DNA from: Thermoplasmata archaeon
Lineage (GTDB): Archaea > Thermoplasmatota > Thermoplasmata > Halarchaeoplasmatales > Halarchaeoplasmataceae
DNA: 64,000 nt
Reading direction: 5' to 3'
Assembly: GCA_003553085.1 (NCBI GenBank)
Contig: PUPH01000031.1
Location: forward strand, 3 to 64,002
Shown: in pieces, positions 8,291-27,539 of the stretch
Position numbering within the stretch: the stretch's first letter is position 1
Layout of the letters: each line of letters opens with the position of its first letter
Notes under the pieces: model-generated
Seen by the model: the letters and a program-made list of their open reading frames with translations, nothing else
The model's database searches: none
Told to the model about the DNA's origin: nothing
Position numbers and translations under genes: made by a program

Positions 8291-10012
8291 TTAGTAATCG
8301 ACTGTCCATTCAACGTTTTCATCAGCATCGTTGTAGAGCCAATAACCGCTTCCAGGGGAGAACTCGAACCCTTGTGAATCCACGTAGGCAACGTTGTACT
8401 CCTCAGTAGCTTCGAAGTATCCCACTGTCGTCACTTCAGTCGGCAGATCATGGTGCCCTGCACTATCGCTGGGCAGCCCCACCATGTTCCAGCCTGGTTC
8501 TAGTGTAAGAGTAGTGGTTCCTGGTTCAATACCTTCCACCGTTAACGTATCCTCCACGTTCATCTGGACCCAGACGCCCATGGTGTGGTCCCATGTACCG
8601 AGGTTGTTGAAGTGATCCGCTCTGTCAGGTACATAAGAATACCAACTTCCTGAATCGAAGTACATAACTTTATCGTAATTACCGGCTATTCCATTATCAG
8701 GGTCCTCGAGGATCGCTTCCAACGACGTATCATCAGGTATCAGATTGAACGATACGAAGTTCCAGCCGTCGGCATCTGCGGTCAACTGTATGTCCATGGT
8801 AGTGGTTTCTGTACCGGGCTCCTGAACGGCGTTTTCATTATCTTCTTCCAAGCCGTTAGTACCAACAGCCCTAACGACGTACCACCAAAATATGTCGTCC
8901 GACATACCTTTATCATGATCAAGGTGTTCATAATCAGCTGAACCATCGGCAGTTACGCTTTCTACAAACGTACTTTCGTCCCACGGACCTGACTGCGATT
9001 CAGAGCGATATATATTGTAATGGCTGACATCTCCGGTCAGCTCATCAGGGCTGGCGTCCCACGAGATCAGGTTGTGATCATCACCCTCAGAGGGGATGCC
9101 TTCTGCGGTAACAAGGACGTTATCTATACGCCAGCCAGCTCCGAAGTCCTCATCATACTCCTCTATACCGGCTTCCCAGCGTAGATGTATCGTATCTCCA
9201 GCATGGGCTGATAGGTCAAAGGTCACTGTTTCCCAGTCCACTGAACTACCCCAGGCCGGTTCACCACCTAGTGGATTGCCAAAGCCGTCGTTTATCTCTC
9301 CGTCGTAGCCCTCGTTAGGGGTTATAAGATCGAAATTCCCGTTCACACCATTGGTCGATAGTTTCAGATTTCCGCCGTCGACCATTGTCGTGACGAAGCC
9401 GAGATCGCGCCAGTGGTCGAACGATAGTTCCACTTCCGTGGCCTCTGCAGGTATCTCTATAGCCGGTGAAGTCAGCATACTTATGTAACCCGCTCCTGAA
9501 GATTTGTGATACTGACCATCTCCGAAGTCCCATGAATTGGAGCCGACCGATGAGCCGTGCTGTCGGATATCCCATTCACTTCCACTGGCACTTCCGGAAA
9601 CGTCCGTTGTGTAACCTTTGTCCGCCGATACGTCGTCCTGGAACAGTATAGCTGTATCTCCACCGGTGTGCTGTACTTCCAAGTTATCAGGAGGTGCCGG
9701 CGGTGTGCCGACTATGGTAAATGTGCTGGCACTTTCGTCGTCTCCCCGTCTACCGGCGGTATCCACTGCTTCCACCCGTACCAAACAGTCGCTGCTGTGC
9801 TCGTTGGGCACCGTCCATGTGTACGAGCCCGTGTCAGCCACGTTGGTATCTATGGTCTGCCAGTTACTACCGGCATCTACACTGTACTCCAGATTGATGT
9901 GATCGACTGGGTTGTCACCAGGTGTCGTACTCCAAGATATCGTTTCTTGTGTACCCGCATCGAATGTCTCTCCTCCACTGGGCTGTGTGACCGATATCTC
10001 CGGAGGCTCTCC
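8291..10012 (-). repeat. Shared C-terminal cassette, copy 1 (modules A-B-C-D)
   Basis: Begins at GEPPEISVTQPSGGE and ends ...GYWLYNDADENVEWTVDY. Long identical nucleotide runs with the copies at 11571-13262 and 18408-20123. Confidence 0.8.
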
Positions 10013-11434
10013 GGCTATGATCTCTATATCTATCCTCTGCCCCCATTCATCGCTTATGGAGAAATCCTCAGAATAGGTTTCTGTATATATCCTAAAGTCA
10101 TCATCGAGCTCATAACCCTCTTCCACAAGATTTCCAAAGTTCAGTTCATAATAGCCATTTCTATCTGTATCGATGGATATGGTTTCACCGGTTTCCATAT
10201 TCTCGATGCTGACTGTAACTCCTTCTGCGTGACCACCGCCATCATATCCTACCGTCCCATATACTAAATACGGTACCGGTGGATAAAGCGTTACATCGCC
10301 ATCTCCGAGATCAGTATCTGCCACCCTGCACTGGTAGATCAAAGAGTCATCGACATCTTGGTTTATCGTCATTATTTCATCGGGATGAGGATAGAATCCT
10401 TCCATACCCCATCCACCTGTATAGATTTCATAAACCAACCCATGAGCACCTAGTGCGTCGTAAGCCCAGTCTGCAGCCCCTCCGGGTGCACTGTAACCTA
10501 TCAATTCATGCGGCTGACCATAGACGTACTGGGAACTATCATCTCCAAGACGGGAAGTTTGCGAAGTCATATGACCTGCCATGCCTCTAAACCAATCGTC
10601 ATGAGGTGACGGAGAGCTTGTGTGCATATAAGGTATCAATAGAGAATGATGGTGACTGTGGATGTTTTGATATGATTGAATATCATTAGAGAGCATGAAA
10701 TCTCTCAAATATTTATTCTCATACTCGGAGAAGGGTGCTTCACCACGATAAGTGTCCGAACTCGGATCGGAAACTCCCTGCTCCCATGCTATATCCCAGT
10801 TCCTGTTAAGATCCACACCGATAGATGTTGTAGGGGTCGAGTCGTTAGTGTTCTTTCTCCACCCTGATCGTTCCTCGTAAACGCCGTCTCCATCATATAT
10901 GTAGCCATCTGGATTCTGAATCGGCATTACGAAGATCCTTCTATTGTTCAGTAACCAGTATATGGTTTCATTGGTTTCGTACTCATTGAGCATCCTCCAG
11001 GTTAGATAAGAAGCTACCTGGGGTCCCGACCATTCTCGAGAGTGCATTATCGCATCGATCAAGATCTCTGGTTTATCATCTACTTGAACGTCCTCATCGG
11101 ATGTGATCTCAAGGACCCAAAGGTCTCTACCTTCATAACTGTTCCCGATATGTATCTTTGATACAAGTTCTGGAAATTCTATCACGAGATCATCGTACCA
11201 ATCGTATAATTCTTGAACACTGGGGTAGTGATCCGGGAACGGATACTCAGATCTCTCGGCGATACTTTCATCCCTAGTATCTTCATTTAAGATATCACAA
11301 GATCTAGACTCATCTATGCACAGGTTCGTATAGATCGAATCGTCTCCACTCTGCACGACACTTACCGAAAAGATCGACAATACTAAAAAAACCGTTATCA
11401 TTAGAACGCCTAGCTTAGTTTTCTCCTCGAACAT
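8291..11434 (-). CDS. Secreted M14 zinc carboxypeptidase (paralog A). Domain order: signal peptide, M14 domain, carboxypeptidase-regulatory-like domain, shared 570-aa C-terminal cassette.
   Basis: N-terminal hydrophobic signal. M14 motifs IMHSREWS (HxxE) and NPDGY. GGAG Shine-Dalgarno 9 nt before the ATG. C-terminal cassette shared with the three downstream genes. Confidence 0.85.
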   Translation of the reverse strand: MFEEKTKLGVLMITVFLVLSIFSVSVVQSGDDSIYTNLCIDESRSCDILNEDTRDESIAERSEYPFPDHYPSVQELYDWYDDLVIEFPELVSKIHIGNSYEGRDLWVLEITSDEDVQVDDKPEILIDAIMHSREWSGPQVASYLTWRMLNEYETNETIYWLLNNRRIFVMPIQNPDGYIYDGDGVYEERSGWRKNTNDSTPTTSIGVDLNRNWDIAWEQGVSDPSSDTYRGEAPFSEYENKYLRDFMLSNDIQSYQNIHSHHHSLLIPYMHTSSPSPHDDWFRGMAGHMTSQTSRLGDDSSQYVYGQPHELIGYSAPGGAADWAYDALGAHGLVYEIYTGGWGMEGFYPHPDEIMTINQDVDDSLIYQCRVADTDLGDGDVTLYPPVPYLVYGTVGYDGGGHAEGVTVSIENMETGETISIDTDRNGYYELNFGNLVEEGYELDDDFRIYTETYSEDFSISDEWGQRIDIEIIAGEPPEISVTQPSGGETFDAGTQETISWSTTPGDNPVDHINLEYSVDAGSNWQTIDTNVADTGSYTWTVPNEHSSDCLVRVEAVDTAGRRGDDESASTFTIVGTPPAPPDNLEVQHTGGDTAILFQDDVSADKGYTTDVSGSASGSEWDIRQHGSSVGSNSWDFGDGQYHKSSGAGYISMLTSPAIEIPAEATEVELSFDHWRDLGFVTTMVDGGNLKLSTNGVNGNFDLITPNEGYDGEINDGFGNPLGGEPAWGSSVDWETVTFDLSAHAGDTIHLRWEAGIEEYDEDFGAGWRIDNVLVTAEGIPSEGDDHNLISWDASPDELTGDVSHYNIYRSESQSGPWDESTFVESVTADGSADYEHLDHDKGMSDDIFWWYVVRAVGTNGLEEDNENAVQEPGTETTTMDIQLTADADGWNFVSFNLIPDDTSLEAILEDPDNGIAGNYDKVMYFDSGSWYSYVPDRADHFNNLGTWDHTMGVWVQMNVEDTLTVEGIEPGTTTLTLEPGWNMVGLPSDSAGHHDLPTEVTTVGYFEATEEYNVAYVDSQGFEFSPGSGYWLYNDADENVEWTVDY

Positions 11435-11537
11435 TTTTTTATCTCCTATGAACCGACGATTAACTTAGCTAGAATTTACCGGGTTAATAAACGTTGGTTG
11501 CAAATTTACATACCTTCTTCCTAAAACCAACTATATT

Positions 11538-11570
11538 CAAAAAAAAAATAAAAAAAGAAAGAAGGGTTTT
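11538..11570 (-). terminator. Long oligo-T tract after the S8 peptidase stop codon
   Basis: The minus strand reads AAAACCCTTCTTTCTTTTTTTATTTTTTTTTTG. Confidence 0.55.
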
Positions 11571-13262
11571 TTAGTACTCAACGGTCCAATCTACTGTGTG
11601 ATCCCCGTCGTTGTACAGCCAGTAGCCTTCTCCAGGTGAGAACTCGTATCCGGCTGCATCCACGTAAGCGATGTTGTATGCTTGCGCAGGATCGAAGTGA
11701 CCGACCGTAGTTACTTCCGCCGGGAGATCGTGGTTCCCGGCTGTAGAGCTAGGTAGTCCCACCATGTTCCATCCTGGATCCAGAGTTATGGTCGTCGTAC
11801 CTGGTTCGTTACCTTCAACCGTTAGCGTATCGTCCACGTTCATACGTATCCAAACACCCATGGTGTGGTCCCATGTACCAAGATTATTGAAGTGGTCCGC
11901 TCTATCAGGCACATACGAGTACCAACTCCCAGAATCGAAGTACATCAGGCTGTCGTAGTTACCAGCGATGCCGTAGTCTTCGTGTTCAAGTATGGATTCC
12001 AGATCTGTGATACCAGGTTCTAGGTTGAAAGATACAAAGTTCCAACCGTCGCCGTCCCCGGACAATTGGATGTCCATTGTCGGTAGGGCATCTCCTCCAG
12101 GTTCCTGTACCGAATCGGTGTTCTCTTCTTCCATGCCATTGGTACCAACAGCTCTAACGACATACCACCAGAATATTTCATCAGCCATACCTTTATCCTG
12201 ATCCAAGTAGTCATAAGTGGCTGAACCGTCGGCGGTTAGACTGTCTATCAGAGTGGTTTCGTCCCAAGGACCGTTCTGGTCTTCGGAACGATAGATATTG
12301 TATCCACTGACTTCATCGGGGTCATCAGGACTGGCGTCCCATGTGATCAGGTTGTGCTCGTCTCCGTCGGAAGGTACTCCCTCGGCTGTGACGGATATAT
12401 CATCGATACGCCATCCGGCACCTCCATCAGTGGTCCAGTCTTCAGCTCCTGCATCCCAACGTATCTGTATCGTCTCTCCGATGTTATCCGTCAGGTCGAC
12501 TGTGACCTCTTCCCAGCCTACCGTGCCGCCCCAGGCATCTTCGCCCTCTATGGGGTTGCTGTATCCTGTGCCGATGGTATGGTCGTACCCCGGTTCCGGG
12601 TCTTCGATCAGATCCCAAGTTTCTCCATCGGTTGATATCTTAAGGTTAACTCCATCCCAAGTATCTGCGATATCTCTCCAGTGCTGGAAGGTGAGTTCTA
12701 TGCTGTCTGCACTCTCCGGTATCATGATCTCTGGAGATATCAGCCAGGCGCCTCCACCTACCTTATCGTACTGTCCATCACCCCAGTCCCAGGAGTGATC
12801 TCCTATCACAGATCCATGATCTCTGATATCCCATCCGACTAGACCGCCGCTTGTTCCGCTAATATATCCAAGGTCCTCGGATACATCGTCAGCGAAGAGG
12901 ACTCCGTCTCCTAAGCCTTCGTGCTCCACGACTAAGTTGGAAGGCGGTTCGGGAGGTGTACCTTCTATGGTGAACACGCCGCTTATGTCTTCACCGGATC
13001 TACCTGAAGTATCCCTCACATTAGCTCTGATCAGAGATTCTGTGCTCTGCTCGTTCGGTACAGTCCATGTGTAACTGCTGGTGTCCGGTAGACCAGACTC
13101 GATCAGGTTCCAAGAGTCTCCGTTGTCAACACTGTAATAAAGATCAACATGATCGACCGGATCGTCGCCTTCCTGGGTATTCCAAAGGATATCTTCCTGT
13201 GTATCAGCGGTGAGCACTTCTCCGCCACTGGGTTGAGATATCGTTATCTCCGGAGGTTCTCC
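11571..13262 (-). repeat. Shared C-terminal cassette, copy 2
   Basis: Begins PGEPPEITISQPSGGE and ends ...GYWLYNDGDHTVDWTVEY. Confidence 0.8.
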
Positions 13263-15476
13263 GGGGACTTCATCGACCGCGTTATACATGACCAAGGCAT
13301 AATCCTGCCCGGTTCCCACGACAGGATCCGGGACATCGTACCCGTGTATTCGGACGGTGTAAAAACCTTCCTCTAGGTCTGTATCGCGTATGAAGACGTT
13401 CTCAACATTATTCACATCGTCCCATCCATCTCCGTTTGAATCAAAGGAACCGTATGTGGATTCCCCGGGTTCGGACCAGCTTTCTACTAGATTGTTACCT
13501 CTATAAACGTCACCAGTGGGTGAAATAACTTCCAGATTCAAGTCGTTCTTCAACGTCGGGTCATCTCCATCCATAGCTTGTGAATCGGACCACACCAAGG
13601 TTATCCTTAAAGGCTCTCCATCGTCCTGGTACTCTATCATATATTCATCAACATCTCCGGTTGATAGGACGGAAGTTTCATCTACGAACACTGAATCTAC
13701 GGGTGGATCGACAATCTGTGGTAAGTTAACCATACCCCAGCCTTCATCCTGATTGGGTATATGAGGACTGTTTTCACCACCGTTGTTGTTTGCCAGATTG
13801 TATGCCGTATTTACCATCAAGGCCTTTACCATGGATGGATTAGGCAGGCTTCCGTAGTGGGTATCATACCAATCAACGATAACGGTTCCTGCTCCGGCTG
13901 CAGCGGGACAAGCCATAGACGTTCCCGACATAGAACCGTATCCTCCACCAGGCATGGTAGATTCCACGTTATCACCAGGTGCTACAACATCAGGCTTTAC
14001 ACGATTATCATTGGTCCATCCACGAGAACTAAAACCAGCCATGTTATCAGGATTACCTCCACGTGATCCATAGTTCTCAGTTGCACCGATGGATATGATG
14101 TTTTTACCGTTAGCCGGACTGCCGATAGTATTAGATCCACTCCCAGAATTACCGGCCGCCACAAATATGACCATCGGTTCTCCGTCACCAGCGTCTCTAG
14201 TTAGCATGTCGAATTCTTCGTCTCCTAAGGTGTATTCTCCTGCGGTTTCCGCACCCCATGAATTTGAGTGAACGTATGCACCGCTGCGGTCCCTGGCTTC
14301 GGTGATTATCCTAACATATGAATCCGTTGGACCGATCCAACTTCCTCCGCCATCGAATATCCTAAGTGCGAACAGGTCGGTTTCAGGGGCAGACCCCTGT
14401 CCAGAATAGTAATCCTCATAGACCGTTGATCCGGTCCCATGATATGTATCGCCGCCCACCGAGCCGGTACAGTGTGTTCCGTGACCGTGACCGTCGTTCC
14501 ATGAACCTTCAGCGTCTGTCTCGTCACCAAAATCATAACCTCCTAGTACTCTACCAGTGAAGTCTTGGTGACCTGCATTCGGAGTAGTCCCATCGCCTAA
14601 CCCAGTATCAGCCACAGCAGTGACTACTCCAGCCCCTTTATATCCTATCTGGTTGGCAAAGGAACCATAATCTCCGTGCTCTCGGTAAGCTGTATCTGGA
14701 TCATCGTCATCATCGTAAACCCATAGACCGCCACCTATCGTCTGGGTAGCCATCTCATCCCATAGTTGGGGTTCTACATAGTTTGATATATAGTAAACAT
14801 CGTTTTTGTTCGCGAGCTCCACGAATTCAGATTCATCTTCAACGACGGTGAGTAATTTGTTTCCATCGGTGGTCCGGATCCTAACCATACCCGGCTCTAG
14901 GCCTTCAGCGAGTTTGAAACCAGGTTGGTATATTCCGATCCAATCAACGAACCATAGATCCTCAACACGATCAGCAAGTTCGGGTGTCATAACTACCTCA
15001 AAAGCGAAGTTTGGTTGATAGTTTATTATCTTAACACCCATCTCCTCCAGCTCAGCTCTCCATGAAGAAGATACCGGTCCGAGCACATGTATGAGGTATA
15101 TTCCCTCTTCACCAGGGCTGTAGCCGTCGATGGTTAATTCCGTATCGAATCGAGGTAAACCCTCGTTTATATCGAATACGTGTCCCTTGATACTGAGTTC
15201 CGTCCTTCCGATCAACGGATTCATTTCCATACCCTGATTTTGTAACGTATTGGCTGTTTCAAGATCCATATCTACAAGAGCGTAATCTCTGTATCTATAC
15301 AAGATCTGGGCATTCGATCGTTTCAGTCTGCTTATTTCTTCGATACTTTGTATATCCACCATAAAGTACTCCGTACTATCAGATCCTACAGAGTTGAACC
15401 CCGTAACAACGAAAACTGACAACAGCAGTACTACTGCGGTGAACACACACAGCATCTTTAGAACTGTCTTTTTCAT
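11571..15476 (-). CDS. Secreted S8 subtilisin-like serine peptidase. Domain order: signal peptide, S8 domain, P-domain-like region, shared C-terminal cassette.
   Basis: Catalytic triad context DTGLGDG, HGTHCTG, GTSMACP and oxyanion AAGNSG. SD GGTGGAG 6 nt before ATG 15476. The ORF-track start 15488 is a GTG. Confidence 0.85.
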   Translation of the reverse strand: MKKTVLKMLCVFTAVVLLLSVFVVTGFNSVGSDSTEYFMVDIQSIEEISRLKRSNAQILYRYRDYALVDMDLETANTLQNQGMEMNPLIGRTELSIKGHVFDINEGLPRFDTELTIDGYSPGEEGIYLIHVLGPVSSSWRAELEEMGVKIINYQPNFAFEVVMTPELADRVEDLWFVDWIGIYQPGFKLAEGLEPGMVRIRTTDGNKLLTVVEDESEFVELANKNDVYYISNYVEPQLWDEMATQTIGGGLWVYDDDDDPDTAYREHGDYGSFANQIGYKGAGVVTAVADTGLGDGTTPNAGHQDFTGRVLGGYDFGDETDAEGSWNDGHGHGTHCTGSVGGDTYHGTGSTVYEDYYSGQGSAPETDLFALRIFDGGGSWIGPTDSYVRIITEARDRSGAYVHSNSWGAETAGEYTLGDEEFDMLTRDAGDGEPMVIFVAAGNSGSGSNTIGSPANGKNIISIGATENYGSRGGNPDNMAGFSSRGWTNDNRVKPDVVAPGDNVESTMPGGGYGSMSGTSMACPAAAGAGTVIVDWYDTHYGSLPNPSMVKALMVNTAYNLANNNGGENSPHIPNQDEGWGMVNLPQIVDPPVDSVFVDETSVLSTGDVDEYMIEYQDDGEPLRITLVWSDSQAMDGDDPTLKNDLNLEVISPTGDVYRGNNLVESWSEPGESTYGSFDSNGDGWDDVNNVENVFIRDTDLEEGFYTVRIHGYDVPDPVVGTGQDYALVMYNAVDEVPGEPPEITISQPSGGEVLTADTQEDILWNTQEGDDPVDHVDLYYSVDNGDSWNLIESGLPDTSSYTWTVPNEQSTESLIRANVRDTSGRSGEDISGVFTIEGTPPEPPSNLVVEHEGLGDGVLFADDVSEDLGYISGTSGGLVGWDIRDHGSVIGDHSWDWGDGQYDKVGGGAWLISPEIMIPESADSIELTFQHWRDIADTWDGVNLKISTDGETWDLIEDPEPGYDHTIGTGYSNPIEGEDAWGGTVGWEEVTVDLTDNIGETIQIRWDAGAEDWTTDGGAGWRIDDISVTAEGVPSDGDEHNLITWDASPDDPDEVSGYNIYRSEDQNGPWDETTLIDSLTADGSATYDYLDQDKGMADEIFWWYVVRAVGTNGMEEENTDSVQEPGGDALPTMDIQLSGDGDGWNFVSFNLEPGITDLESILEHEDYGIAGNYDSLMYFDSGSWYSYVPDRADHFNNLGTWDHTMGVWIRMNVDDTLTVEGNEPGTTTITLDPGWNMVGLPSSTAGNHDLPAEVTTVGHFDPAQAYNIAYVDAAGYEFSPGEGYWLYNDGDHTVDWTVEY

Positions 15477-15655
15477 GCTAGACTCCACCTGCTAAGTTTT
15501 CTCCTCAAAACAAAATTTTAAGGCTTTGTTTAATCATGCAATGTAGTTATACAATATAAAGATTTACATCAAGATGGCATATAGAACAAACTATTTATCC
15601 ATGAATCCACAATATATTAGAAACCGCGATTAAAAATAGAAAGGAAAAGATGGGT

Positions 15656-17377
15656 TCAGTAGTCGATAATCCATTCAACACTTTGGTCGGCGTCGTTGTA
15701 GAGCCAGTAGCCCTCTCCAGGTGAGAACTCAAAGTTCGACGGGTCATGATCGTAGGCCAAATTATATTCAACGAAATCATCAAAATATCCTATACAGCTG
15801 ACTTCTCCGGGTAGGTTATGATTTCCAGATGTTGAACTAGGCATACCGACCATGTTCCAACCCGGGTGTAATACAATATCAGTACTGCTCAGTAAATACC
15901 CTTCAATAGTCAATGTATCGTCTGAAGTCATACGTATCCAGATACCCATGGTGTGATCCCAGTCTTGGAGATTGTTGTAGTGCTCATCTCTACCAGGGAC
16001 GTATGAAAACCATTCATGGCTTTCAGCGTCGTAGTACATCACCTGATCATATCGTCCTTGTATCCCAGTATTTGGATCATTTAAAATTGCAGTGATGCTA
16101 GTATCACCATATAACGGAAATAAGTTATAAGATACAAAATTCCAACCGTCGGCATCGCCGTCTGCGTACAGAGGGATATCAAAGGCACCTATATAACCTG
16201 TTTCCTCACCAACATCGGTGTTCTGCTCTTCTAGTCCATTTACTCCAACAGCACGCACTACGTAACACCACCAAACATCATCGGCCGTACCTTTACCTAT
16301 GTCGATGTAACTGTAATCTGCTGAACCGTCAGCGGGTAAGCTGTCTATGAGAGTACTGTCATCCCATGGACCTGTGTGTTCATCCGAACGATAGATATTG
16401 TAATGGCTCACCTCATCTGGATCATCCGGGCTAGCATCCCAGGTCAATAAATTATGATCGTCTCCGTCACCGGAAACCTCTCCTGTAACTAAGATATCAT
16501 CTATCCTCCAGCCCGCATGTGTTGAACCATAATTGTCAACACCGGCGTCCCATCTGATCCAAACACTTTCACCTTCGTATCCGCTGAGATCAACGGTTAC
16601 CTCTTCCCAGTCTGTAGAATGTCCCCATGCTGGTTCTCCCTCAAGTGGATTATCCCATCCACCTTCTACCGTACCATCGTATGCAGGATTCGGATCAGTT
16701 ATGAGATCCCATGAGCCCTCTGGGCCGTCCGTCGATATCTTAAGGTTGCCGCCGTCCCATATTGAGCCATCATCTTCAAATTCCCTCCAGTGCATGAATG
16801 TCATCTCTATCTCAGTCGCATCTGTCAGATCGATCTCAGGTGTTATCAGCCAGCTGAGTCCGCCATTGCTGGGATCGTTATAGTTACCATCGCCGAAGTC
16901 CCATGAATAATCTCCGACTGCGGATCCGTGGGTACGGATACTCCACTCGCTGGCACCGTCAGTCTGTCCTGTGGTATATCCAAGGTCGCCGGATTCCACA
17001 TCATCCTCAAAGATGACTTGAGTAGCTTGTCCGATGTGGTCCACTATCAGATTAGAAGGTGCTGATGGGGGGATACCGTGGATGGCAAAAACGCCGCTGA
17101 TATCTTCGTTCCAGCGTCCCAAGGAATCTACAACACGGACTCGGATCTTACATTCCAAACTATCCTCGTTGGGAACACCCCAGGTATAACTTCCAGTATC
17201 TTGGATATCGCTATCGATGTTATACCATGAATCTCCGGTATCCGTGCTGTACCATATTTCTATACCGTCTATGGGATCTTCCCCTTTTTCAGTAGTCCAT
17301 GTGATGTCTTCTTCTTCGAAGGCATACCATTCTTCTCCACCTATGGGAGAAGTGACGGTTATGGATGGAGGATCCCC
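15656..17377 (-). repeat. Shared C-terminal cassette, copy 3 (most divergent)
   Basis: Begins GDPPSITVTSPIGGEE and ends ...GYWLYNDADQSVEWIIDY. Confidence 0.75.
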
Positions 17378-18376
17378 TTCTGCTACGGGTTGAGCTAGGT
17401 GTCCTAGGCTAGCGATAGCGTGCCTGGTCGTATGGGTTATCTGTGGAAGTGTGAGTTTGTCCAGCGTGTCATCTGCCGTGTGATAGTAGGGGCTAAAGAC
17501 GGTTTCTATGGACAGAGTGGCATTGTATCCCTCGTCCCAAAAGCTGGAATGGTCTGAACGCCATTCAGTGCTGTCGTACTCATAGGTGAAGTTGATTCCT
17601 ATGTTATCATAGGCCTCGCTTACATCCGCCTTGTAATCCAGCATCCAGTTGGAGGGCGTATTTGCGTGAAGTGTGATGGCCAAGTCAGGTTCCGCGTATC
17701 CAACCATATCGTAATTGAGTTTACCCAACAACTGTTCCTCCGTTTCATCGATGTTAGAAGCATAGTAACTGCTACCGTGCAGTCCCTGTTCCTCCGCACC
17801 CCATAGTGCAAAACGGATGGTACGTTCAAAACTGTATTGGGACATTATCCTCGCAGCCTCTATAGTCACTGCTGAACCACTGCCGTTATCGTCTGCACCA
17901 GGAGCCGCCCCGCCCCAATTGTTTATACTATCAAGGTGCCCGCCGATGATATATGTCTGAGGCTCTAGGTCTGGATTGGTTCCAGGATGTACCGCTATAA
18001 CATTCGTGCTGCTGTGCCCACCAGATGTGAAGTTCTGCATATAGGTATCTAAACCGAAGGAGCTAAGTTCTTGATATGCCCATAGAGCTGCATCATCGAA
18101 ACCACTGGTACCGGTTAATCTGGTCGGTACGCCGTTTTCATCCTCAAAACTTTGTAAAGTATCGATGTAATCATATATATTTGATTCTTCGACTTGATCT
18201 ATCATCATCTGTATCTGAGGATCATGTCCTGGAAACACAGGTGTATCGAGGATATACTCATCGCTTTCATGGTCTAAAATAGGTCCTCCAGAGGTCAAAG
18301 ATACTACCTGTGAGAAAACAGATAGCACTAACGATAAACCGACAAGAAGAACCAGTGATTTCATCTTTTTTTTCAT
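15656..18376 (-). CDS. Secreted M28 zinc aminopeptidase. Domain order: signal peptide, M28 domain, shared C-terminal cassette (divergent copy).
   Basis: M28 metal-ligand motifs GGHLDS, GADDNGSGS, EEQGLHGS and DMVG. Only 31 bp separate it from the upstream M14-B gene, with a GGAG SD in the gap. Confidence 0.8.
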   Translation of the reverse strand: MKKKMKSLVLLVGLSLVLSVFSQVVSLTSGGPILDHESDEYILDTPVFPGHDPQIQMMIDQVEESNIYDYIDTLQSFEDENGVPTRLTGTSGFDDAALWAYQELSSFGLDTYMQNFTSGGHSSTNVIAVHPGTNPDLEPQTYIIGGHLDSINNWGGAAPGADDNGSGSAVTIEAARIMSQYSFERTIRFALWGAEEQGLHGSSYYASNIDETEEQLLGKLNYDMVGYAEPDLAITLHANTPSNWMLDYKADVSEAYDNIGINFTYEYDSTEWRSDHSSFWDEGYNATLSIETVFSPYYHTADDTLDKLTLPQITHTTRHAIASLGHLAQPVAEGDPPSITVTSPIGGEEWYAFEEEDITWTTEKGEDPIDGIEIWYSTDTGDSWYNIDSDIQDTGSYTWGVPNEDSLECKIRVRVVDSLGRWNEDISGVFAIHGIPPSAPSNLIVDHIGQATQVIFEDDVESGDLGYTTGQTDGASEWSIRTHGSAVGDYSWDFGDGNYNDPSNGGLSWLITPEIDLTDATEIEMTFMHWREFEDDGSIWDGGNLKISTDGPEGSWDLITDPNPAYDGTVEGGWDNPLEGEPAWGHSTDWEEVTVDLSGYEGESVWIRWDAGVDNYGSTHAGWRIDDILVTGEVSGDGDDHNLLTWDASPDDPDEVSHYNIYRSDEHTGPWDDSTLIDSLPADGSADYSYIDIGKGTADDVWWCYVVRAVGVNGLEEQNTDVGEETGYIGAFDIPLYADGDADGWNFVSYNLFPLYGDTSITAILNDPNTGIQGRYDQVMYYDAESHEWFSYVPGRDEHYNNLQDWDHTMGIWIRMTSDDTLTIEGYLLSSTDIVLHPGWNMVGMPSSTSGNHNLPGEVSCIGYFDDFVEYNLAYDHDPSNFEFSPGEGYWLYNDADQSVEWIIDY

Positions 18377-18383
18377 TTTTGAT

Positions 18384-18387
18384 CTCC
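18384..18387 (-). promoter_or_regulatory. Shine-Dalgarno GGAG for the M28 gene, inside the 31-bp gap after M14-B
   Basis: The minus strand reads TAAATGAGCATGTATATATCCAAGGAGATCAAAAATG. Confidence 0.5.
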
Positions 18388-18407
18388 TTGGATATATACA
18401 TGCTCAT

Positions 18408-20123
18408 TTAATATTCGATCGTCCAATCTACATCATGATCCGCGTCGTTGTACACCCAATAACCGCTACCGGGCGAGAACTCGAATCCACTGGCATCGGT
18501 ATAAGCGACGTTATACTCCTCACTTGCATCGAAGTATCCCACTGTCGTTACTTCCGCCGGTAGGTTGTGGTTCCCGGCTGTAGAGCTAGGTAGTCCCACC
18601 ATGTTCCATCCAGGATCCAGAGTTATGGTCGTAGTACCGGGTTCGTTACCTTCGATCGTTAGCGTATCGTCCACGTTCATCTGGATCCAGACACCCATGG
18701 TGTTGTCCCACGTACCTAGGTTGTTGAAGTGATCCGCTCTATCCGGTACATAAGAATACCAACGTCCAGAATCGAAGTACATAACTTTATCGTAATTACC
18801 GGCTATACCGTTATCCGGGTCCTCAAGTATATCCACTAGATCGGTGCTGCCGAGCTCAAGATTGAAGGATACGAAGTTCCAGCCGTCGGCATCTGCGGTC
18901 AACTGTATATCCATGGTAGTGGTTTCTGCACCCGGTTCCTGCACCGCGTTTGTGTTATCTTCCTCAATACCATTGGTACCTACCGCTCTAACGACATACC
19001 ACCAGAATATTTCATCAGCCGTACCTCTTTCGGGGTCGATATACTCGTAACCTGTAGAACCGTCGGCGGTAACACTGTCTATCAGGGTACTTCCGTCCCA
19101 CGGTCCATCACTGGATTCAGCTCGATAGATATTATAGTGACTGACTTCGTCAGGATCATCTGGACTAGCATCCCAGGTGATCAGATTGTCTTCGTCTCCA
19201 TCCGAGATGATGCCTTCCGCCGTCACCAGGATATCGTCGATACGCCAGCCCTGGGCACCACCATCATAATCTTCGACTCCAGCGTCCCATCTAAGCCATA
19301 TTGAGTCTCCGGCATATTCACTCAGATCTACCGTTACCTGTTCCCACCCCTGAGAATCAACCCAGGCTGGCTCTCCTTCTATGGGATTTTCAAATCCGGT
19401 TCCAAGGGTTACATCATAAGATGGGTCGGGGTTTTCGATCAAAGACCATTCTCCGTTGGGATCCGCACTTTCCACGGATATCTTTAGATTTCCTCCGTCG
19501 TAATAGTTCGTCCATGAGTCATCGTAATCGAAGTCCCTCCAGTGCTGGAATGTCAACTCCACCTCCTCGGCTTCTTCGGGTATATCGATCTCGGGAGATA
19601 TCAACCAGCTGACTTCTCCTACTTTCTCATAGCCTCCATCGCCCCAATCCCAGGAACTGTCTCCGACTATGGATCCGTGGTCTCTGATATCCCATTCGTT
19701 CGTGCCTTCACTGCTGCCTGTGGTATATCCAAGGTCCTCCGATGCATCATCATGGAATAATACTTCTTGTCCTGAACCAACATGCTGTACATCTAGATTT
19801 TCCGGAGGGTCTGGAGGTGCGCCTTCGATGGTGAAGACATCACTGATGTCTTCTCCACTCCTACCTACCGTGTCTATTACGTTCAACCTGACACGACATT
19901 CCGTACTATCTTCATTGGGTACGGTCCATGTATAGCTTCCCGTATCTGCTACTCCGGATCCGATAGATGCCCAGCTATATCCATCATCTACACTGTACCA
20001 TAGATCTATAGAATCGATAGGATCGTCCCCCTGTTCGGTAGTCCAAGTGATATCTTCTTCAGTGCCCGCGGTGAAGGTCTCTCCTCCTTCAGGTCGGTTT
20101 ATGGTGATATCCGGGGGATCCCC
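18408..20123 (-). repeat. Shared C-terminal cassette, copy 4
   Basis: Begins GDPPDITINRPEGGE and ends ...GYWVYNDADHDVDWTIEY. Confidence 0.8.
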
Positions 20124-21656
20124 CACCTCTTCCAGAACGATATCTATCCTCTGGCCCCATTCTTCACCGATGGTAAAATCTTGATCATTATGATCGGCAG
20201 AAATACGGAAGGTGTCGTCGGTCGTGTATCCACTATCTACAAGATTTCCAAAGTTCAATTCGTAGTAGCCGTTACTGTTCGTCCCGATGGAGATCGTTTC
20301 TGATGTATCGACGTTCTCTACCGTTACTGGAACATCCACCACAGAACCTCCTGAAGAATATTCGACCGTACCGTAAACCAGGTAGGGGACCGGAGGATGG
20401 AGGTGGTTTGTACCGTCTCCGAGATCTATATCGGCTATCCTTCCTTGATATATCAGGGCGTCATCAACGTCTTTATTGATGGTCATTATCTCATCTGGTG
20501 GTGGATAAAATCCATGACCTCCGGTTTCAAGTTCGAAAACCATCGAGAAAGCTCCGGTTTCATCATAGACCCAATCTCCAGCACCACCAGGTGCTGAGTA
20601 ACCGATCTCTTCTCCCGCCTGACCATAGCTGTAGGGATCATTCTCATCCCCCATCTGAGAGGTCAGAGAAGTCATATGTCCTGCCATCCCTCGGTACCAA
20701 CTATCATGGGGCGATGGATCAGTAGAATTACACCAAGGGATCAACATGGTCCCGGCATAGCTGTGGATGTTCTGATACGTGTCGATATCGTTTTCAAGTA
20801 TGAAATCCCTGAGAGACTTAGTCTCATACTCAGAAAACGGTGCCTCGCCGTGATAATCGTCTGCACCACCTCTTGAATTGCCGTCTTCCCAATGTATATC
20901 CCAATTCCGATTAAGATCTACACCTACAGCATCATCAGGGATCGTATCGTTACGGTTTTTCCGCCAATTATTTTGGTTTCCGTAATCGCCGTCACTATCA
21001 TAGATATACCCATCAGGATTGACCATGGGCATAACGTAGATCCTACGATTGTTGAGCATCCAGTGGATGGTCTCGTTGGAGTCGTATTCGTCCAGTATCC
21101 GCCACATGAAGTAGGCTGAAGCCTGAGTGGATGACCATTCTCTTGCGTGCATCGATCCATCCACAAGGAAACCAGGTTTGTGATCCACCTGTGTATCTTC
21201 GTCAGAGGTCACCTCCAGGACCCATAGATCTCTGCCCTCCCAGGACTGGCCTATGTTGATCTTCGATACAAGATCGGGATACTCGTCGACCAGGTCATCG
21301 TACCAATCATTCAACTCACTCACACTGGGATAGTGGTTGGCAAAAGGATAGTCGGTTTCAAGGATCTTTTCTCTGTCCTCTTCCTGCCTAATAACCTCGA
21401 CCTCCATACCTGAAGATTCCAGATAAGACAAGGTTGAATCATCGGTTTCAACTAATAGATTCATACCATCTCGCACCAATATTTCAGTATTGGCTTCGTT
21501 TATACTCTGTAAGTCCGCTAGAGATCTCATCTGGACTCCAGCTTTGATCACCTCTACATCTTCATCTTCGTAGTGGTTTACAGCTACAAAACAGACAGAA
21601 AACATCAAAAGCAGAACTACCGTTATTACCCCGAGGGGGATCTTTGTATTGTGCAT
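18408..21656 (-). CDS. Secreted M14 zinc carboxypeptidase (paralog B). Domain order: signal peptide, M14 domain, carboxypeptidase-regulatory-like domain, shared C-terminal cassette.
   Basis: SMHAREWS and NPDGY motifs. Collinear with and similar to paralog A. GGAGG SD 6 nt before the ATG. Confidence 0.85.
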   Translation of the reverse strand: MHNTKIPLGVITVVLLLMFSVCFVAVNHYEDEDVEVIKAGVQMRSLADLQSINEANTEILVRDGMNLLVETDDSTLSYLESSGMEVEVIRQEEDREKILETDYPFANHYPSVSELNDWYDDLVDEYPDLVSKINIGQSWEGRDLWVLEVTSDEDTQVDHKPGFLVDGSMHAREWSSTQASAYFMWRILDEYDSNETIHWMLNNRRIYVMPMVNPDGYIYDSDGDYGNQNNWRKNRNDTIPDDAVGVDLNRNWDIHWEDGNSRGGADDYHGEAPFSEYETKSLRDFILENDIDTYQNIHSYAGTMLIPWCNSTDPSPHDSWYRGMAGHMTSLTSQMGDENDPYSYGQAGEEIGYSAPGGAGDWVYDETGAFSMVFELETGGHGFYPPPDEIMTINKDVDDALIYQGRIADIDLGDGTNHLHPPVPYLVYGTVEYSSGGSVVDVPVTVENVDTSETISIGTNSNGYYELNFGNLVDSGYTTDDTFRISADHNDQDFTIGEEWGQRIDIVLEEVGDPPDITINRPEGGETFTAGTEEDITWTTEQGDDPIDSIDLWYSVDDGYSWASIGSGVADTGSYTWTVPNEDSTECRVRLNVIDTVGRSGEDISDVFTIEGAPPDPPENLDVQHVGSGQEVLFHDDASEDLGYTTGSSEGTNEWDIRDHGSIVGDSSWDWGDGGYEKVGEVSWLISPEIDIPEEAEEVELTFQHWRDFDYDDSWTNYYDGGNLKISVESADPNGEWSLIENPDPSYDVTLGTGFENPIEGEPAWVDSQGWEQVTVDLSEYAGDSIWLRWDAGVEDYDGGAQGWRIDDILVTAEGIISDGDEDNLITWDASPDDPDEVSHYNIYRAESSDGPWDGSTLIDSVTADGSTGYEYIDPERGTADEIFWWYVVRAVGTNGIEEDNTNAVQEPGAETTTMDIQLTADADGWNFVSFNLELGSTDLVDILEDPDNGIAGNYDKVMYFDSGRWYSYVPDRADHFNNLGTWDNTMGVWIQMNVDDTLTIEGNEPGTTTITLDPGWNMVGLPSSTAGNHNLPAEVTTVGYFDASEEYNVAYTDASGFEFSPGSGYWVYNDADHDVDWTIEY

Positions 21657-23295: not shown

Positions 23296-24993
23296 ATGTT
23301 TGAGATGAAGGATAATCCACGAATATCCGTGATGATGATCACTGCTTTGATCTTGATTACGCTATCGATCTCAACTTCAGTTCAAGGGTTCCAAGAATAT
23401 CCCTGGGGTTCGTACGGTGGAGATCCAAGGAACAGTGGTTTAAGCCCTCACGACACTTCACATCATGAAGGTGAGATAATATGGGACTATGAAGTCGATA
23501 GAGCCATAAGCGCTTCACCCATAATCGGACCTAGAGATCAAGTGTATGTCGGAACGGTAGGAGGCTATCTTTACTCACTATCTTCGGCCGGGCTTCAAAG
23601 ATGGGTACACTCAGTCCAAGGAGCCATAAGGTCCACACCGGCCATAGGGGTTAACGATATGATCTACGTTGGGTGCGACGACGGTATGCTCTATGGGATC
23701 TCAGATCATGGTGAGCGTGTTTGGGAGCACGAGATCGGTGGAAATGTGAGATCATCTCCTACGGTCGGAGAGGATGGGAGTTTGTATATCGGTTCCAGCT
23801 CGGGACATGTTTACTCCTTTTCGCCTCATGGTGATCTTAGATGGAAAACATATGTGGGTGGAAGGATCACCGGTTCACCGGCCTTAAACGATGATAATCT
23901 ATATGTCGGTGTTAATATAGATGCATTCGGCGATAACGCCACGCTGATATCCATGGACCTTGGTGGTGAGGTAAGGTGGAATCATTCTATCAATACGAGC
24001 ACACTTTCTTCCCCATCGATAGATGATCAAGGAAACCTATATATCGGTGGCGGTAATAATTTGTACTCATTCGAGGCCGATGGTTCACCCCGATGGACAT
24101 TTCAAACAAACGGCACGATAAGATCATCGGCATCCATAGGGCCGAATGCAGAGATATACGTCACCTCCATGGACAAAAATCTGTACGCTTTAAATACCGA
24201 TGGGCAGATCAGGTGGTATTTCGAAACGGGAGCTTATATAAGCGGCTCACCGTCGATCTGTTCGGATGGAAACGTGTTCGTCGGTTCTGCCGACGGTAAA
24301 CTGTACTCACTGAATTATGAGGGGGATCTAAGGAGTACCGTCAACGTCGGTGAGAACATAATCAGCACACCAGCCATCGGCTCAGATGGAAAGATATATT
24401 TTGGTACAGTGGGAGGTGTTTTTTATGCAGTCAATGGGCACGTCGAGGACGAGAAGACACCACCTATACCCGTATCGGTCAGTGTTGAAGTCGGAGCAGA
24501 TCATATAAACATCAGCTGGGAATTACCGTCTGAAGAACTTGAGGTGGATCACTTCAACATATACAGAACCGATGTAGATGGTAATAGATCCTACCTATTT
24601 TCCATAAGCGGAGCGAGGCGTTACTACAGAGATGGTATGGTGGATCACGATGTGAAGTATATCTATCGCATTTCTTCCGTGGATGAAAGAGGGGAGTCCT
24701 TACCGAGCGAACCTATGATCATATCTTTAACTCCACCCGAAGATAAAGAAGAGATATCTGTTTTTGAAAGGGGGGAAATCCTTCTGCCCATACTGTTAGT
24801 AACCATCATCTCCTTCGTGATGATCTGCAAACATCTTAAAAAGAAAAGAGAAGAAAAGAATCGACTCCCTATGGAGATAGGGTTGCGTTATACCTGCCCA
24901 TACTGTGCCAATAAAGTGTATTCATCAGGTGATCCCGGAGAATGTGTGAACTGTACTCGATGTGGTAGTCTGATCAAGGGGTTGAATCACTGA
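23296..24993 (+). CDS. Membrane-anchored PQQ-like beta-propeller protein. Domain order: signal peptide, about 8 propeller blades, FN3-like domain, TM helix, C-terminal zinc ribbon.
   Basis: Repeated (D/N)G.(L/I)Y.G(S/T) blades. The FN3-like stretch contains HFNIYRTD. TM segment LLPILLVTIISFVMICKHL. C-terminal CPYCANKV...CVNCTRCGS. Confidence 0.7.
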   Translation: MFEMKDNPRISVMMITALILITLSISTSVQGFQEYPWGSYGGDPRNSGLSPHDTSHHEGEIIWDYEVDRAISASPIIGPRDQVYVGTVGGYLYSLSSAGLQRWVHSVQGAIRSTPAIGVNDMIYVGCDDGMLYGISDHGERVWEHEIGGNVRSSPTVGEDGSLYIGSSSGHVYSFSPHGDLRWKTYVGGRITGSPALNDDNLYVGVNIDAFGDNATLISMDLGGEVRWNHSINTSTLSSPSIDDQGNLYIGGGNNLYSFEADGSPRWTFQTNGTIRSSASIGPNAEIYVTSMDKNLYALNTDGQIRWYFETGAYISGSPSICSDGNVFVGSADGKLYSLNYEGDLRSTVNVGENIISTPAIGSDGKIYFGTVGGVFYAVNGHVEDEKTPPIPVSVSVEVGADHINISWELPSEELEVDHFNIYRTDVDGNRSYLFSISGARRYYRDGMVDHDVKYIYRISSVDERGESLPSEPMIISLTPPEDKEEISVFERGEILLPILLVTIISFVMICKHLKKKREEKNRLPMEIGLRYTCPYCANKVYSSGDPGECVNCTRCGSLIKGLNH

Positions 24994-27524: not shown

Positions 27525-27539
27525 ATTAGGGATGATCAT

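What the first reader, a model, noticed from the sequence alone, without database searches (positions are those of the whole stretch)
8291..8800. Terminal roughly 170-aa module (GWNMVGLPS ... GYWLYND ... W(T/I)(V/I)(D/E)Y) may be a new C-terminal sorting or surface-attachment domain
All four peptidases end in the same module. The copies are also at 11571-12080, 15656-16170 and 18408-18920. None has a C-terminal TM helix, a PGF-CTERM-like tripeptide plus TM, or a lipobox. By analogy with bacterial cargo proteins that carry variable enzymes on a constant C-terminal secretion or anchoring domain, this module may serve the same role. It could direct export, S-layer binding or assembly onto a scaffold in this archaeon. 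The larger surface protein at 29072-31618 uses a different C-terminal TM anchor, so two surface-display strategies coexist here.
Basis: inference. Interest (0 to 1): 0.6.

Follow-up and report, generated by a model that had tools for sequence, protein, structure and literature searches.

The report
Unannotated C-terminal tail domain of archaeal exoenzymes
Four neighbouring secreted peptidases of a salt-loving Thermoplasmata archaeon end in the same 170-residue all-beta domain, which matches no catalogued family but sits at the tail of thousands of secreted archaeal proteins and probably tethers them to a surface; that role is inferred, not shown.

Summary
Four tandem minus-strand genes (two M14, one S8, one M28 peptidase) each end in a 168-175-aa module that is 61-82% identical between copies. 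It is the last and best conserved part of a shared cassette of about 560 aa: Ig-like, MAM-like, FN3-like, then the module.

The module is an internal duplication of a unit of about 80 aa (hhalign probability 96.9%). AlphaFold2 models it confidently as one compact all-beta domain (pLDDT 96.9). It matches nothing in Pfam, NCBIfam, PDB sequences, or Foldseek searches of PDB and BFVD.

The family is large, with 1,290 50%-identity representatives at E<=1e-30. It lies mainly in Thermoplasmatota, with 10-18 or more genes per genome bin. The module ends the protein in about 95% of cases, and nearly all carriers have an N-terminal signal-like sequence. The N-terminal partners vary widely: C1, S8, M14, C25 and M28 peptidases, arginine deiminase, esterases, propellers, beta-helices and GLUG.

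The sorting-signal reading is not supported. No machinery gene recurs nearby. The module also occurs internally, near the N-terminus, in tandem and alone, and distant copies occur in bacteria and in contigs binned as giant viruses.

The best reading is a non-covalent tethering or binding domain. Homologous ectodomains end either in a transmembrane anchor or in this module. It is a new domain family of a known kind, and its function is unproven.

The parts
8294..8797 (-). Terminal module of the M14 carboxypeptidase gene 8291-11434 (residues 880-1047). Half A is 8516-8797 and half B is 8294-8515.
   Evidence: Alignment A1; boundaries; homology of the two halves; AF2 model with pLDDT 96.9.
11574..12077 (-). 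Terminal module of the S8 subtilase gene 11571-15488 (residues 1138-1305).
15659..16183 (-). Terminal module of the M28 aminopeptidase gene 15656-18376 (residues 732-906).
18411..18914 (-). Terminal module of the second M14 carboxypeptidase gene 18408-21656 (residues 915-1082).
8294..10006 (-). Shared C-terminal cassette in M14a: Ig-like (9710-10006), MAM-like (9083-9709), FN3-like (8798-9082), module. The equivalent cassettes are 11574-13256 (S8), 15659-17371 (M28) and 18411-20117 (M14b).
   Evidence: Kre9_KNH, InhA-like_MAM and Reelin_subrepeat-B hits; choice_anch_J at 26 bits against a cut-off of 30 in the M28 protein; windowed identity 54-78%; boundaries.
11339..11434 (-). N-terminal signal-like hydrophobic segment of M14a. 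The equivalents are 15393-15488, 18281-18376 and 21561-21656.
   Evidence: It is the only segment in each protein with a 19-residue Kyte-Doolittle average above 1.6. Cleavage was not tested.
8291..21656 (-). Tandem array of four module-bearing peptidase genes, with intergenic gaps of 136, 167 and 31 bp.
   Evidence: Similar arrays of up to 5 module genes occur in related genomes.
23296..24993 (+). Comparator: a PQQ-type beta-propeller plus FN3 protein that ends in a TM helix and a Zn-ribbon tail instead of the module.
   Evidence: Its homologue P0028 (33% identity, E 3e-40) ends in the module.
29072..31618 (-). Comparator: a CARDB surface protein with a signal peptide, a C-terminal TM helix and an acidic tail.

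Best explanation
The module is an autonomously folding, non-catalytic extracellular domain that no domain library lists. It arose by tandem duplication of a beta unit of about 80 residues. Each unit starts with an I-x-L strand and a GWN-x-V motif and ends with a G-x-GYW motif and a final strand. The two units pack into one compact, pseudo-symmetric all-beta domain.

In this archaeon the four peptidases are most likely exported through Sec by their N-terminal signal sequence. The catalytic domain comes first. An Ig-like, MAM-like, FN3-like stalk follows, and the module forms the extreme C-terminus.

The most likely job of the module is non-covalent binding that keeps otherwise soluble exoenzymes and adhesins attached to a surface. 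That surface is most plausibly a component of the cell's own envelope, so that hydrolysis products stay near the cell. In that role it stands in for a C-terminal membrane anchor.

Shown: the homology, the internal duplication, the confident fold prediction, the strong preference for the C-terminal position, the exported and highly varied partners, the many paralogues per genome, the lack of any other anchor, and the alternation with TM anchors in homologous ectodomains.

Inferred: Sec export and signal cleavage, the binding activity, and the identity of the ligand.
For: - Four paralogues are 61-82% identical in the module.
- The two halves are homologous: hhalign probability 96.9%, E 1.3e-10.
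- The AF2 model has pLDDT 96.9 and pTM 0.90, with 12-13 strands.
- The family is large: 1,290 50%-identity representatives at E<=1e-30, and all of the best 150 cover the module.
- 213 of 225 relatives end with the module, with the C-terminal pattern W-T-V-[ED]-Y.
- The 74 loci from species-representative genomes hold 110 module ORFs. They form arrays of up to 5, with at least 10-18 per genome bin.
- All 55 complete relatives have a signal-like N-terminus, and many have an A-x-A-like cleavage site.
- Partners are functionally unrelated: C1 x6, S8 x5, M14 x3, C25 x3, M28 x2, PAD_porph x2, PETase-like x2, PQQ propeller x5, beta-helix/NosD x5, GLUG, Flg_new_2. This argues for a general localisation or binding role, not a substrate-specific one.
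- The window proteins have no other anchor.
- Homologous ectodomains end either in a TM anchor or in the module. Examples are the propeller protein at window 23296-24993 against P0028, and GLUG proteins with a TM anchor (L054) against GLUG plus module (P0003, P0007).
- The module is aromatic-rich, with 7 Trp and 23-29 aromatic residues per 170, as is common in glycan-binding modules (established knowledge, suggestive only).
Against: - There is no direct evidence of binding and no identified ligand or partner.
- The envelope of these uncultured archaea is unknown.
- The conserved Trp, Gly and Asn residues recur in both halves and in bacterial and viral relatives. They may be core residues and not a binding site.
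- In L058 the module sits near the N-terminus of a protein that has its own C-terminal TM anchor. There it cannot be the anchor and looks more like a distal ligand-binding head.
- Stand-alone bacterial forms and giant-virus-bin forms show that the fold is not tied to one envelope type.
- The N-terminal hydrophobic segments of the four window proteins are long (about 20 residues) and lack clear A-x-A sites. They could be uncleaved signal anchors, which would make the module the distal tip and not the tether.
Confidence: 0.45

Rival explanations
1. The module is a C-terminal sorting signal. A dedicated secretion, processing or attachment machine recognises it, as the T9SS recognises its CTD or as sortase and archaeosortase recognise their substrates. 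It then directs export or covalent attachment and may be removed.
For: - The module is at the extreme C-terminus in about 95% of relatives, with a conserved final strand and a terminal aromatic residue.
- There are dozens of cargo proteins per genome.
- The cargo list (C25 gingipain-like, PAD_porph, M14, S8) closely parallels the known T9SS CTD cargo of Porphyromonas (the comparison rests on established knowledge).
Against: - No candidate machinery gene recurs within 10 kb of module genes in 75 loci. The only recurrent neighbours are cytoplasmic ATPase/wHTH-TPR proteins and other surface proteins.
- The module also works in internal, N-proximal, tandem (5 copies) and stand-alone positions.
- It occurs in Bacteria and, without signal peptides, in giant-virus bins.
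- It is a folded domain of 170 aa, larger than any known sorting tag.
- There is no HMM match to Por_Secre_tail or any sorting-domain family.
Confidence: 0.1
2. The module is a substrate-, particle- or cell-binding head, like a carbohydrate-binding module, lectin or adhesin. The proteins stay anchored by an uncleaved N-terminal signal anchor or diffuse freely, and the module targets them to detrital polymers, mineral-bound organic matter or other cells.
For: - In L058 the module is distal in a TM-anchored protein.
- Stand-alone secreted forms and multi-copy forms exist.
- The composition is aromatic-rich.
- Frequent partners are adhesin-type domains: GLUG, PKD, cadherin-like, CARDB.
- The N-terminal hydrophobic segments of the window proteins are long.
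Against: - The partners are dominated by peptidases and other non-glycan enzymes, which is unusual for a polysaccharide-targeting CBM.
- Many relatives have classical cleavable-looking signal peptides.
- In homologous ectodomains the module occupies the slot of a TM anchor.
Confidence: 0.22
3. The module is a docking or oligomerisation domain, like a dockerin. It assembles many different enzymes onto a scaffold protein or onto each other.
For: - Many different enzymes share one constant tail.
- They are clustered in arrays.
- The pseudo-symmetric two-lobe structure could offer two binding faces.
- Bacterial neighbours include proteins with faint or weak Pfam dockerin hits.
Against: - No candidate scaffold with repeated receptor domains was found near the module genes.
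- There is no similarity to dockerin or cohesin.
- No complex prediction was possible with these tools.
Confidence: 0.1
4. The module is a C-terminal propeptide, folding helper or inhibitor that is removed on maturation. This would resemble the PPC (pre-peptidase C-terminal) domain of secreted bacterial proteases.
For: - It lies at the C-terminus of secreted peptidases of four families in the window.
- PPC domains occupy the same position in bacterial M4, M28 and S8 enzymes (established knowledge).
Against: - Most partners outside the window are not peptidases: propellers, beta-helices, GLUG, PKD, CAP, esterases.
- There is no HMM match to PF04151, and one relative carries PPC as a separate domain upstream (P0268).
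- Internal and stand-alone forms exist.
Confidence: 0.06

Closest known systems
T9SS C-terminal domain (type A CTD, Pfam Por_Secre_tail PF18962 / TIGR04183) of Bacteroidota
   Same: It is a constant folded all-beta domain at the extreme C-terminus of many unrelated Sec-exported proteins per genome. The cargo spectrum is very similar: gingipain-like C25, peptidyl-arginine deiminase, M14 carboxypeptidase, subtilases.
   Different: - There is no sequence or Foldseek similarity.
- The module is about twice as long and is built from two repeats.
- The host is an archaeon without an outer membrane.
- No associated machinery was found.
- The module also tolerates internal and N-proximal positions.
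WxL domain (PF13731) of Enterococcus and Lactobacillus surface proteins
   Same: It is a C-terminal domain of about 160-190 aa with two spaced Trp-containing motifs. In relatives the motif here, GWN-L-V, literally contains W-x-L. The WxL domain attaches secreted proteins non-covalently to the cell surface (established knowledge).
   Different: There is no HMM match at E<=10. The WxL ligand is peptidoglycan, which archaea lack. The resemblance is functional and architectural only.
GW modules / SH3b-type repeats (Listeria InlB, Ami) and SLH domains
   Same: They are repeated units of about 80 aa at the C-terminus that tether secreted proteins non-covalently to envelope polymers.
   Different: No sequence or structure match was detected. 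The ligands are different, being lipoteichoic acid and secondary cell-wall polymers.
PGF-CTERM / archaeosortase and plain C-terminal TM anchors of archaeal surface proteins
   Same: They occupy the same architectural slot. Homologous ectodomains in these genomes end either in a TM helix plus charged tail or in this module.
   Different: The module has no hydrophobic helix and no tripeptide motif. It is a soluble, very acidic beta domain with pI about 4.
PPC (pre-peptidase C-terminal, PF04151) domain
   Same: It is a C-terminal beta domain of secreted peptidases.
   Different: There is no HMM match. The module is not restricted to peptidases and can coexist with a separate PPC domain.
Kelch-type beta-propeller blades
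   Same: There is a weak local motif resemblance: W-x-x-V ... Y-D-x-x-T-D-x-W. The only PDB sequence hit is to designed Kelch propellers (SAKe).
   Different: Each blade scores only about 9 bits (i-E 10). The summed E-value comes from six identical blades. There is no Pfam Kelch hit, and the AF2 model is a two-lobe domain and not a propeller. Rejected.

Membership tests
T9SS type A C-terminal sorting domain (PF18962 / TIGR04183) | Match to the family HMM | tested here: not met
   There is no hit at E<=10 in Pfam for the 4 window modules or for 36 diverse members, and none in NCBIfam at E<=1.
T9SS type A C-terminal sorting domain (PF18962 / TIGR04183) | Host is a diderm bacterium with T9SS machinery (PorK/L/M/N, Sov, PorU) | tested here: not met
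   The window is archaeal, with Rad50/Mre11, NurA/HerA, an RFC small subunit and an archaeal-type purine gene. The closest relatives are Thermoplasmata bins. No such genes lie in 75 loci. Whole genomes were not searched.
PGF-CTERM / archaeosortase substrates | C-terminal tripeptide motif followed by a TM helix and a basic tail | tested here: not met
   The maximum 19-residue Kyte-Doolittle average in the last 200 aa is 0.39-0.92, and the proteins end ...W(T/I)(V/I)(D/E)Y.
WxL domain (PF13731) | Match to the family HMM | tested here: not met
   No Pfam hit at E<=10.
WxL domain (PF13731) | Non-covalent binding to the cell wall | not testable with these tools
   This needs binding assays.
PPC pre-peptidase C-terminal domain (PF04151) | Match to the family HMM; restricted to secreted peptidases | tested here: not met
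   No hit. Most partners are not peptidases.
Kelch repeat | Significant match per blade and a propeller fold | tested here: not met
   About 9 bits and i-E 10 per blade against a designed six-fold repeat. The AF2 model is not a propeller. No Pfam Kelch hit.
Any solved fold (PDB) | Structural similarity of the confident model to a solved chain | tested here: not met
Choice-of-anchor J domain (NF038128), for the MAM-like domain upstream of the module | Score above the curated cut-off (30 bits) | tested here: inconclusive
   26.0 bits, E 9e-6, in the M28 protein only. The InhA-like_MAM and Reelin subrepeat-B hits are also below their cut-offs.
The new family itself (two-unit 'GWN ... GYW' domain) | Two homologous units of about 80 aa, each with a GWN-x-V motif and a G-x-GYW motif, forming one domain | tested here: met

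The most novel reading that the evidence does not exclude
The module is the attachment or recognition element of a so far undescribed surface-display system of Thermoplasmatota. In this reading a new-fold C-terminal domain docks dozens of exoenzymes per cell onto a specific envelope component or scaffold. It would be the archaeal functional counterpart of the T9SS CTD, SLH or dockerin systems. It would also mark the extracellular peptidases through which sediment and hypersaline Thermoplasmata degrade detrital protein.
Probability: 0.25. Interest if true: 0.75.

Novelty: new variant of a known kind. Interest (0 to 1): 0.55.

Why it matters
Thermoplasmatota such as the sediment-dwelling Thermoprofundales (MBG-D) are thought to degrade detrital protein with extracellular C25, C1, M14, M28 and S8 peptidases (PMC6461988; PMC9123169). 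How these enzymes are kept at the cell is not addressed in those papers.

This module tags exactly that enzyme set, and much else, in many Thermoplasmatota genomes. It is absent from Pfam and NCBIfam. It therefore gives a sequence marker for a large secreted-protein repertoire. It also gives a concrete, testable candidate for how these uncultured archaea, whose cell envelope is not known, retain exoenzymes. The model has no Foldseek match to any solved structure, so the fold may be new.

If the module proves to be only a generic spacer or stability domain, the finding is one more domain of unknown function.

Tried and rejected
- Pfam and NCBIfam scans gave nothing consistent. This covered the four modules and 36 diverse members at E<=10 (Pfam), and one module plus the four full-length proteins at E<=1 (NCBIfam).
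- The first AlphaFold2 run used only the four window copies and was unusable, with pLDDT 48. The second run with 36 sequences was used instead.
- Foldseek against PDB and BFVD gave no significant match.
- The PDB sequence search hit only designed Kelch propellers (SAKe). I rejected it because each blade scores about 9 bits and the total comes from six identical repeats.
- I clustered all non-module ORFs in 75 loci to look for a conserved machinery or partner gene. Only cytoplasmic STAND-ATPase/wHTH-TPR proteins, other TM-anchored surface proteins and housekeeping genes recurred.
- The viral scan with the close-family pattern found nothing. With the distant-family pattern it found 8 giant-virus-bin loci. 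I noted these but they say nothing about function.
- A literature search for the motifs (GWNLVS and variants) found no paper. Papers on Halarchaeoplasmatales and on Thermoplasmata peptidases do not describe the domain.
- Hits to bins named Sumerlaeota, Dojkabacteria and Bacteroidetes (L001, L040, L071) are short contigs from the same soda-lake samples as the Thermoplasmata bins. I treated them as probable mis-binning and not as evidence of bacterial hosts.

Full report
**1. What is in the window**

Between 8291 and 21656 the minus strand carries four adjacent ORFs of 1047, 1305, 906 and 1082 aa, with intergenic gaps of 136, 167 and 31 bp. Pfam identifies their N-terminal catalytic domains:

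| ORF | Domain | E-value |
|---|---|---|
| 8291-11434 | Peptidase_M14 | 1e-66 |
| 11571-15488 | Peptidase_S8 | 3e-38 |
| 15656-18376 | Peptidase_M28 | 9e-37 |
| 18408-21656 | Peptidase_M14 | 3e-73 |

The surroundings are archaeal: Rad50/Mre11, NurA/HerA and an RFC small subunit. The proteins are extremely acidic, with pI about 4, which fits a salt-in halophile.

The refined boundaries are 8294-8797, 11574-12077, 15659-16183 and 18411-18914.

**2. Anatomy**

- The shared part is longer than reported. A cassette of about 560 aa is conserved at 54-78% identity. It consists of an Ig-like domain (Kre9_KNH, up to 27.7 bits), a MAM-like domain (InhA-like_MAM and Reelin subrepeat-B, below cut-off; NCBIfam choice-of-anchor J at 26 bits against a cut-off of 30), an FN3-like domain, and the terminal module. 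The module is the best conserved piece.
- The module is an internal duplication. A profile of residues 1-97 aligns to a profile of residues 98-172 with hhalign probability 96.9% and E 1.3e-10. Each unit begins with a strand (I-x-L) and GWN-x-V, and ends with G-x-GYW and a last strand.
- With 36 diverse sequences, AlphaFold2 gives a single compact domain of 12-13 strands (pLDDT 96.9, pTM 0.90).
- The only hydrophobic segment in each protein is at the N-terminus. There is no C-terminal TM helix, no PGF-CTERM-like end and no lipobox.

**3. Is it a known domain?**

No match was found by any available method:

- Pfam at E<=10, for the four copies and for 36 diverse members.
- NCBIfam at E<=1.
- PDB sequences, apart from a spurious summed hit to a designed six-fold Kelch repeat at about 9 bits per blade.
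- Foldseek against 350,542 PDB chains and against BFVD. There was no match at E<=1e-3 and TM scores were <=0.26, with only weak partial resemblance to small cupin or double-stranded beta-helix proteins.
- Full-text literature. The motifs occur in no paper.

**4. Distribution**

- An exhaustive HMMER search of 1.84 billion 50%-identity representatives found 13,688 proteins at E<=1e-3. This number is inflated because the profile included part of the FN3 domain. It found 1,290 at E<=1e-30, and all of the best 150 cover the module.
- A scan of GTDB species representatives for one motif gave at least 535 confirmed stretches. The best 74 loci are almost all Thermoplasmata from soda lakes and hypersaline sites: Ca. 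Halarchaeoplasma, Ca. Haladaptatiplasma, Ca. Saliniplasma.
- Those 74 loci hold 110 module ORFs, in arrays of up to five. That gives lower bounds of 10-18 per genome bin.
- More distant members occur in other Thermoplasmata, in Woesearchaeota and Nanoarchaeota, and in Bacteria. P0331 lies beside DnaE, HtrA and an OmpR-type system. P0061 lies near YkuD transpeptidases.
- Distant copies also occur on giant-virus-bin contigs, without signal peptides.
- Wherever a source names these proteins, the name is 'hypothetical protein' or reflects another domain.

**5. Position and partners**

- The module ends within 5 residues of the C-terminus in 213 of 225 relatives, with the end pattern W-T-V-[ED]-Y. 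In related genomes it does so in all but six of the 110 ORFs.
- All 55 complete proteins from related genomes begin with a signal-like sequence, and many have A-x-A-like cleavage sites. So do 126 of 145 database proteins.
- The N-terminal partners are functionally unrelated: Peptidase_C1 (6), S8 (5), M14 (3), C25 (3), M28 (2), PAD_porph (2), PETase-like (2), PQQ propellers (5), beta-helix/NosD (5), GLUG, Flg_new_2, metallophosphatase and others. PKD, CARDB+CAP, cadherin-like and BNR also appear.
- This enzyme set matches the extracellular peptidases reported for sediment Thermoplasmata (PMC6461988). It also parallels the T9SS CTD cargo of Porphyromonas (established knowledge).

**6. Evidence bearing on function**

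For a retention or binding role:

- The module is independent of its cargo and terminal, and there are many paralogues per genome.
- The window proteins have no other anchor.
- Homologous ectodomains alternate between two endings. The window's own PQQ-propeller protein (23296-24993) ends in FN3, a TM helix and a Zn-ribbon tail. Its homologue P0028 (33% identity, E 3e-40) ends in the module. GLUG proteins likewise occur with a TM anchor (L054) or with the module (P0003, P0007).

Against a dedicated sorting signal:

- No machinery-like gene recurs near module genes.
- The module also occurs internally.
- In L058 it lies near the N-terminus of a protein that has its own C-terminal TM anchor.
- P0161 carries five copies.
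- Abundant bacterial proteins of 214-232 aa consist of a signal peptide plus the module only.

These forms show an autonomous domain whose activity does not need a free C-terminus or a particular envelope.

**7. Verdict**

The best-supported reading (confidence about 0.45) is a new family of extracellular two-repeat beta domains used as a non-covalent tether or binding tail of Sec-exported enzymes and adhesins. The target is most plausibly the cell's own surface.

| Rival reading | Confidence |
|---|---|
| Distal substrate-, particle- or cell-binding head | about 0.22 |
| Dedicated sorting signal | about 0.10 |
| Dockerin-like docking domain | about 0.10 |
| Removable propeptide | about 0.06 |

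Its interpretation is partly supported: a constant C-terminal localisation-type domain, yes; a sorting signal, not supported; attachment, plausible but untested.

The domain family is new to the libraries searched, but the kind of element is known, namely an accessory C-terminal domain on secreted proteins. I therefore rate it a new variant of a known kind, with moderate interest (0.55).

Noticed in passing
window 551-2698 and 36236-40414; L006, L009, L010, L015, L016, L019, L021, L036, L038, L043, L046, L052, L057, L058, L069, L074: Large cytoplasmic proteins combine a STAND-type P-loop ATPase or a winged-helix N-terminus with long TPR arrays. They recur within 10 kb of module-bearing exoprotein genes in 17 of 75 loci. 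They may regulate these gene arrays, or they may simply be abundant in these genomes.
   Followed up: partly
window 23296-24993 (+) versus P0028; L054 (1687-aa ORF) versus P0003/P0007: The same ectodomain types (PQQ-type beta-propeller, GLUG) occur with either a C-terminal TM helix plus charged or Zn-ribbon tail, or with the module. The two endings therefore appear interchangeable.
   Followed up: yes
L080-L087 (IMG/VR giant-virus MAG contigs), e.g. L087 6420-8468, L081 7952-11246: Distant copies of the two-unit domain (HMM E 1e-14 to 1e-24, nearly full length) occur in AT-rich contigs binned as giant viruses. They sit at the N- or C-terminus of large proteins without signal peptides. One protein pairs a weak S8 subtilase match with a C-terminal module. 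Neighbours include Hsp90, a TTL-family protein and RNase_T+DUF5710. Whether these contigs are truly viral was not established.
   Followed up: partly
L075 400-1098; L077 10001-10645; L078 6088-6732: Bacterial stand-alone proteins of 214-232 aa consist only of a signal peptide plus the module. Two 90%-identity clusters have 72 and 30 member sequences. The gene always lies next to Flg_new_2 (InlB B-repeat) proteins, on a contig that also carries DnaE, HtrA and an OmpR-type two-component system.
   Followed up: partly
L003-L074 (55 complete module proteins): The cargo list includes C25 gingipain-like peptidases, Porphyromonas-type peptidyl-arginine deiminase and M14 carboxypeptidases. In Porphyromonas the same enzyme trio is exported with the T9SS C-terminal domain. 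This may reflect convergent logic, or gene transfer with a swap of tail domain.
   Followed up: no
window 3522-7201 and 26487-29039: The rad50-mre11 pair and the nurA-herA pair, which usually form one archaeal operon, are about 19 kb apart here. The peptidase array, a cysteinyl-tRNA synthetase gene and the propeller surface protein lie between them.
   Followed up: no
L006 10633-16249 (1872-aa ORF): This protein has an internal module (residues 1077-1247). The module is followed by further domains that include a sequence resembling an N-acetylmuramoyl-L-alanine amidase motif (IDPGHGGSDTGAVG). That is odd for an archaeon. It was read by eye only and not scanned.
   Followed up: no
L001, L040, L071: Close relatives of the module (51-69% identity) sit on short contigs assigned to Sumerlaeota, Dojkabacteria and Bacteroidetes bins. 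These come from the same soda-lake sediment samples as the Thermoplasmata bins, so mis-binning is likely.
   Followed up: no
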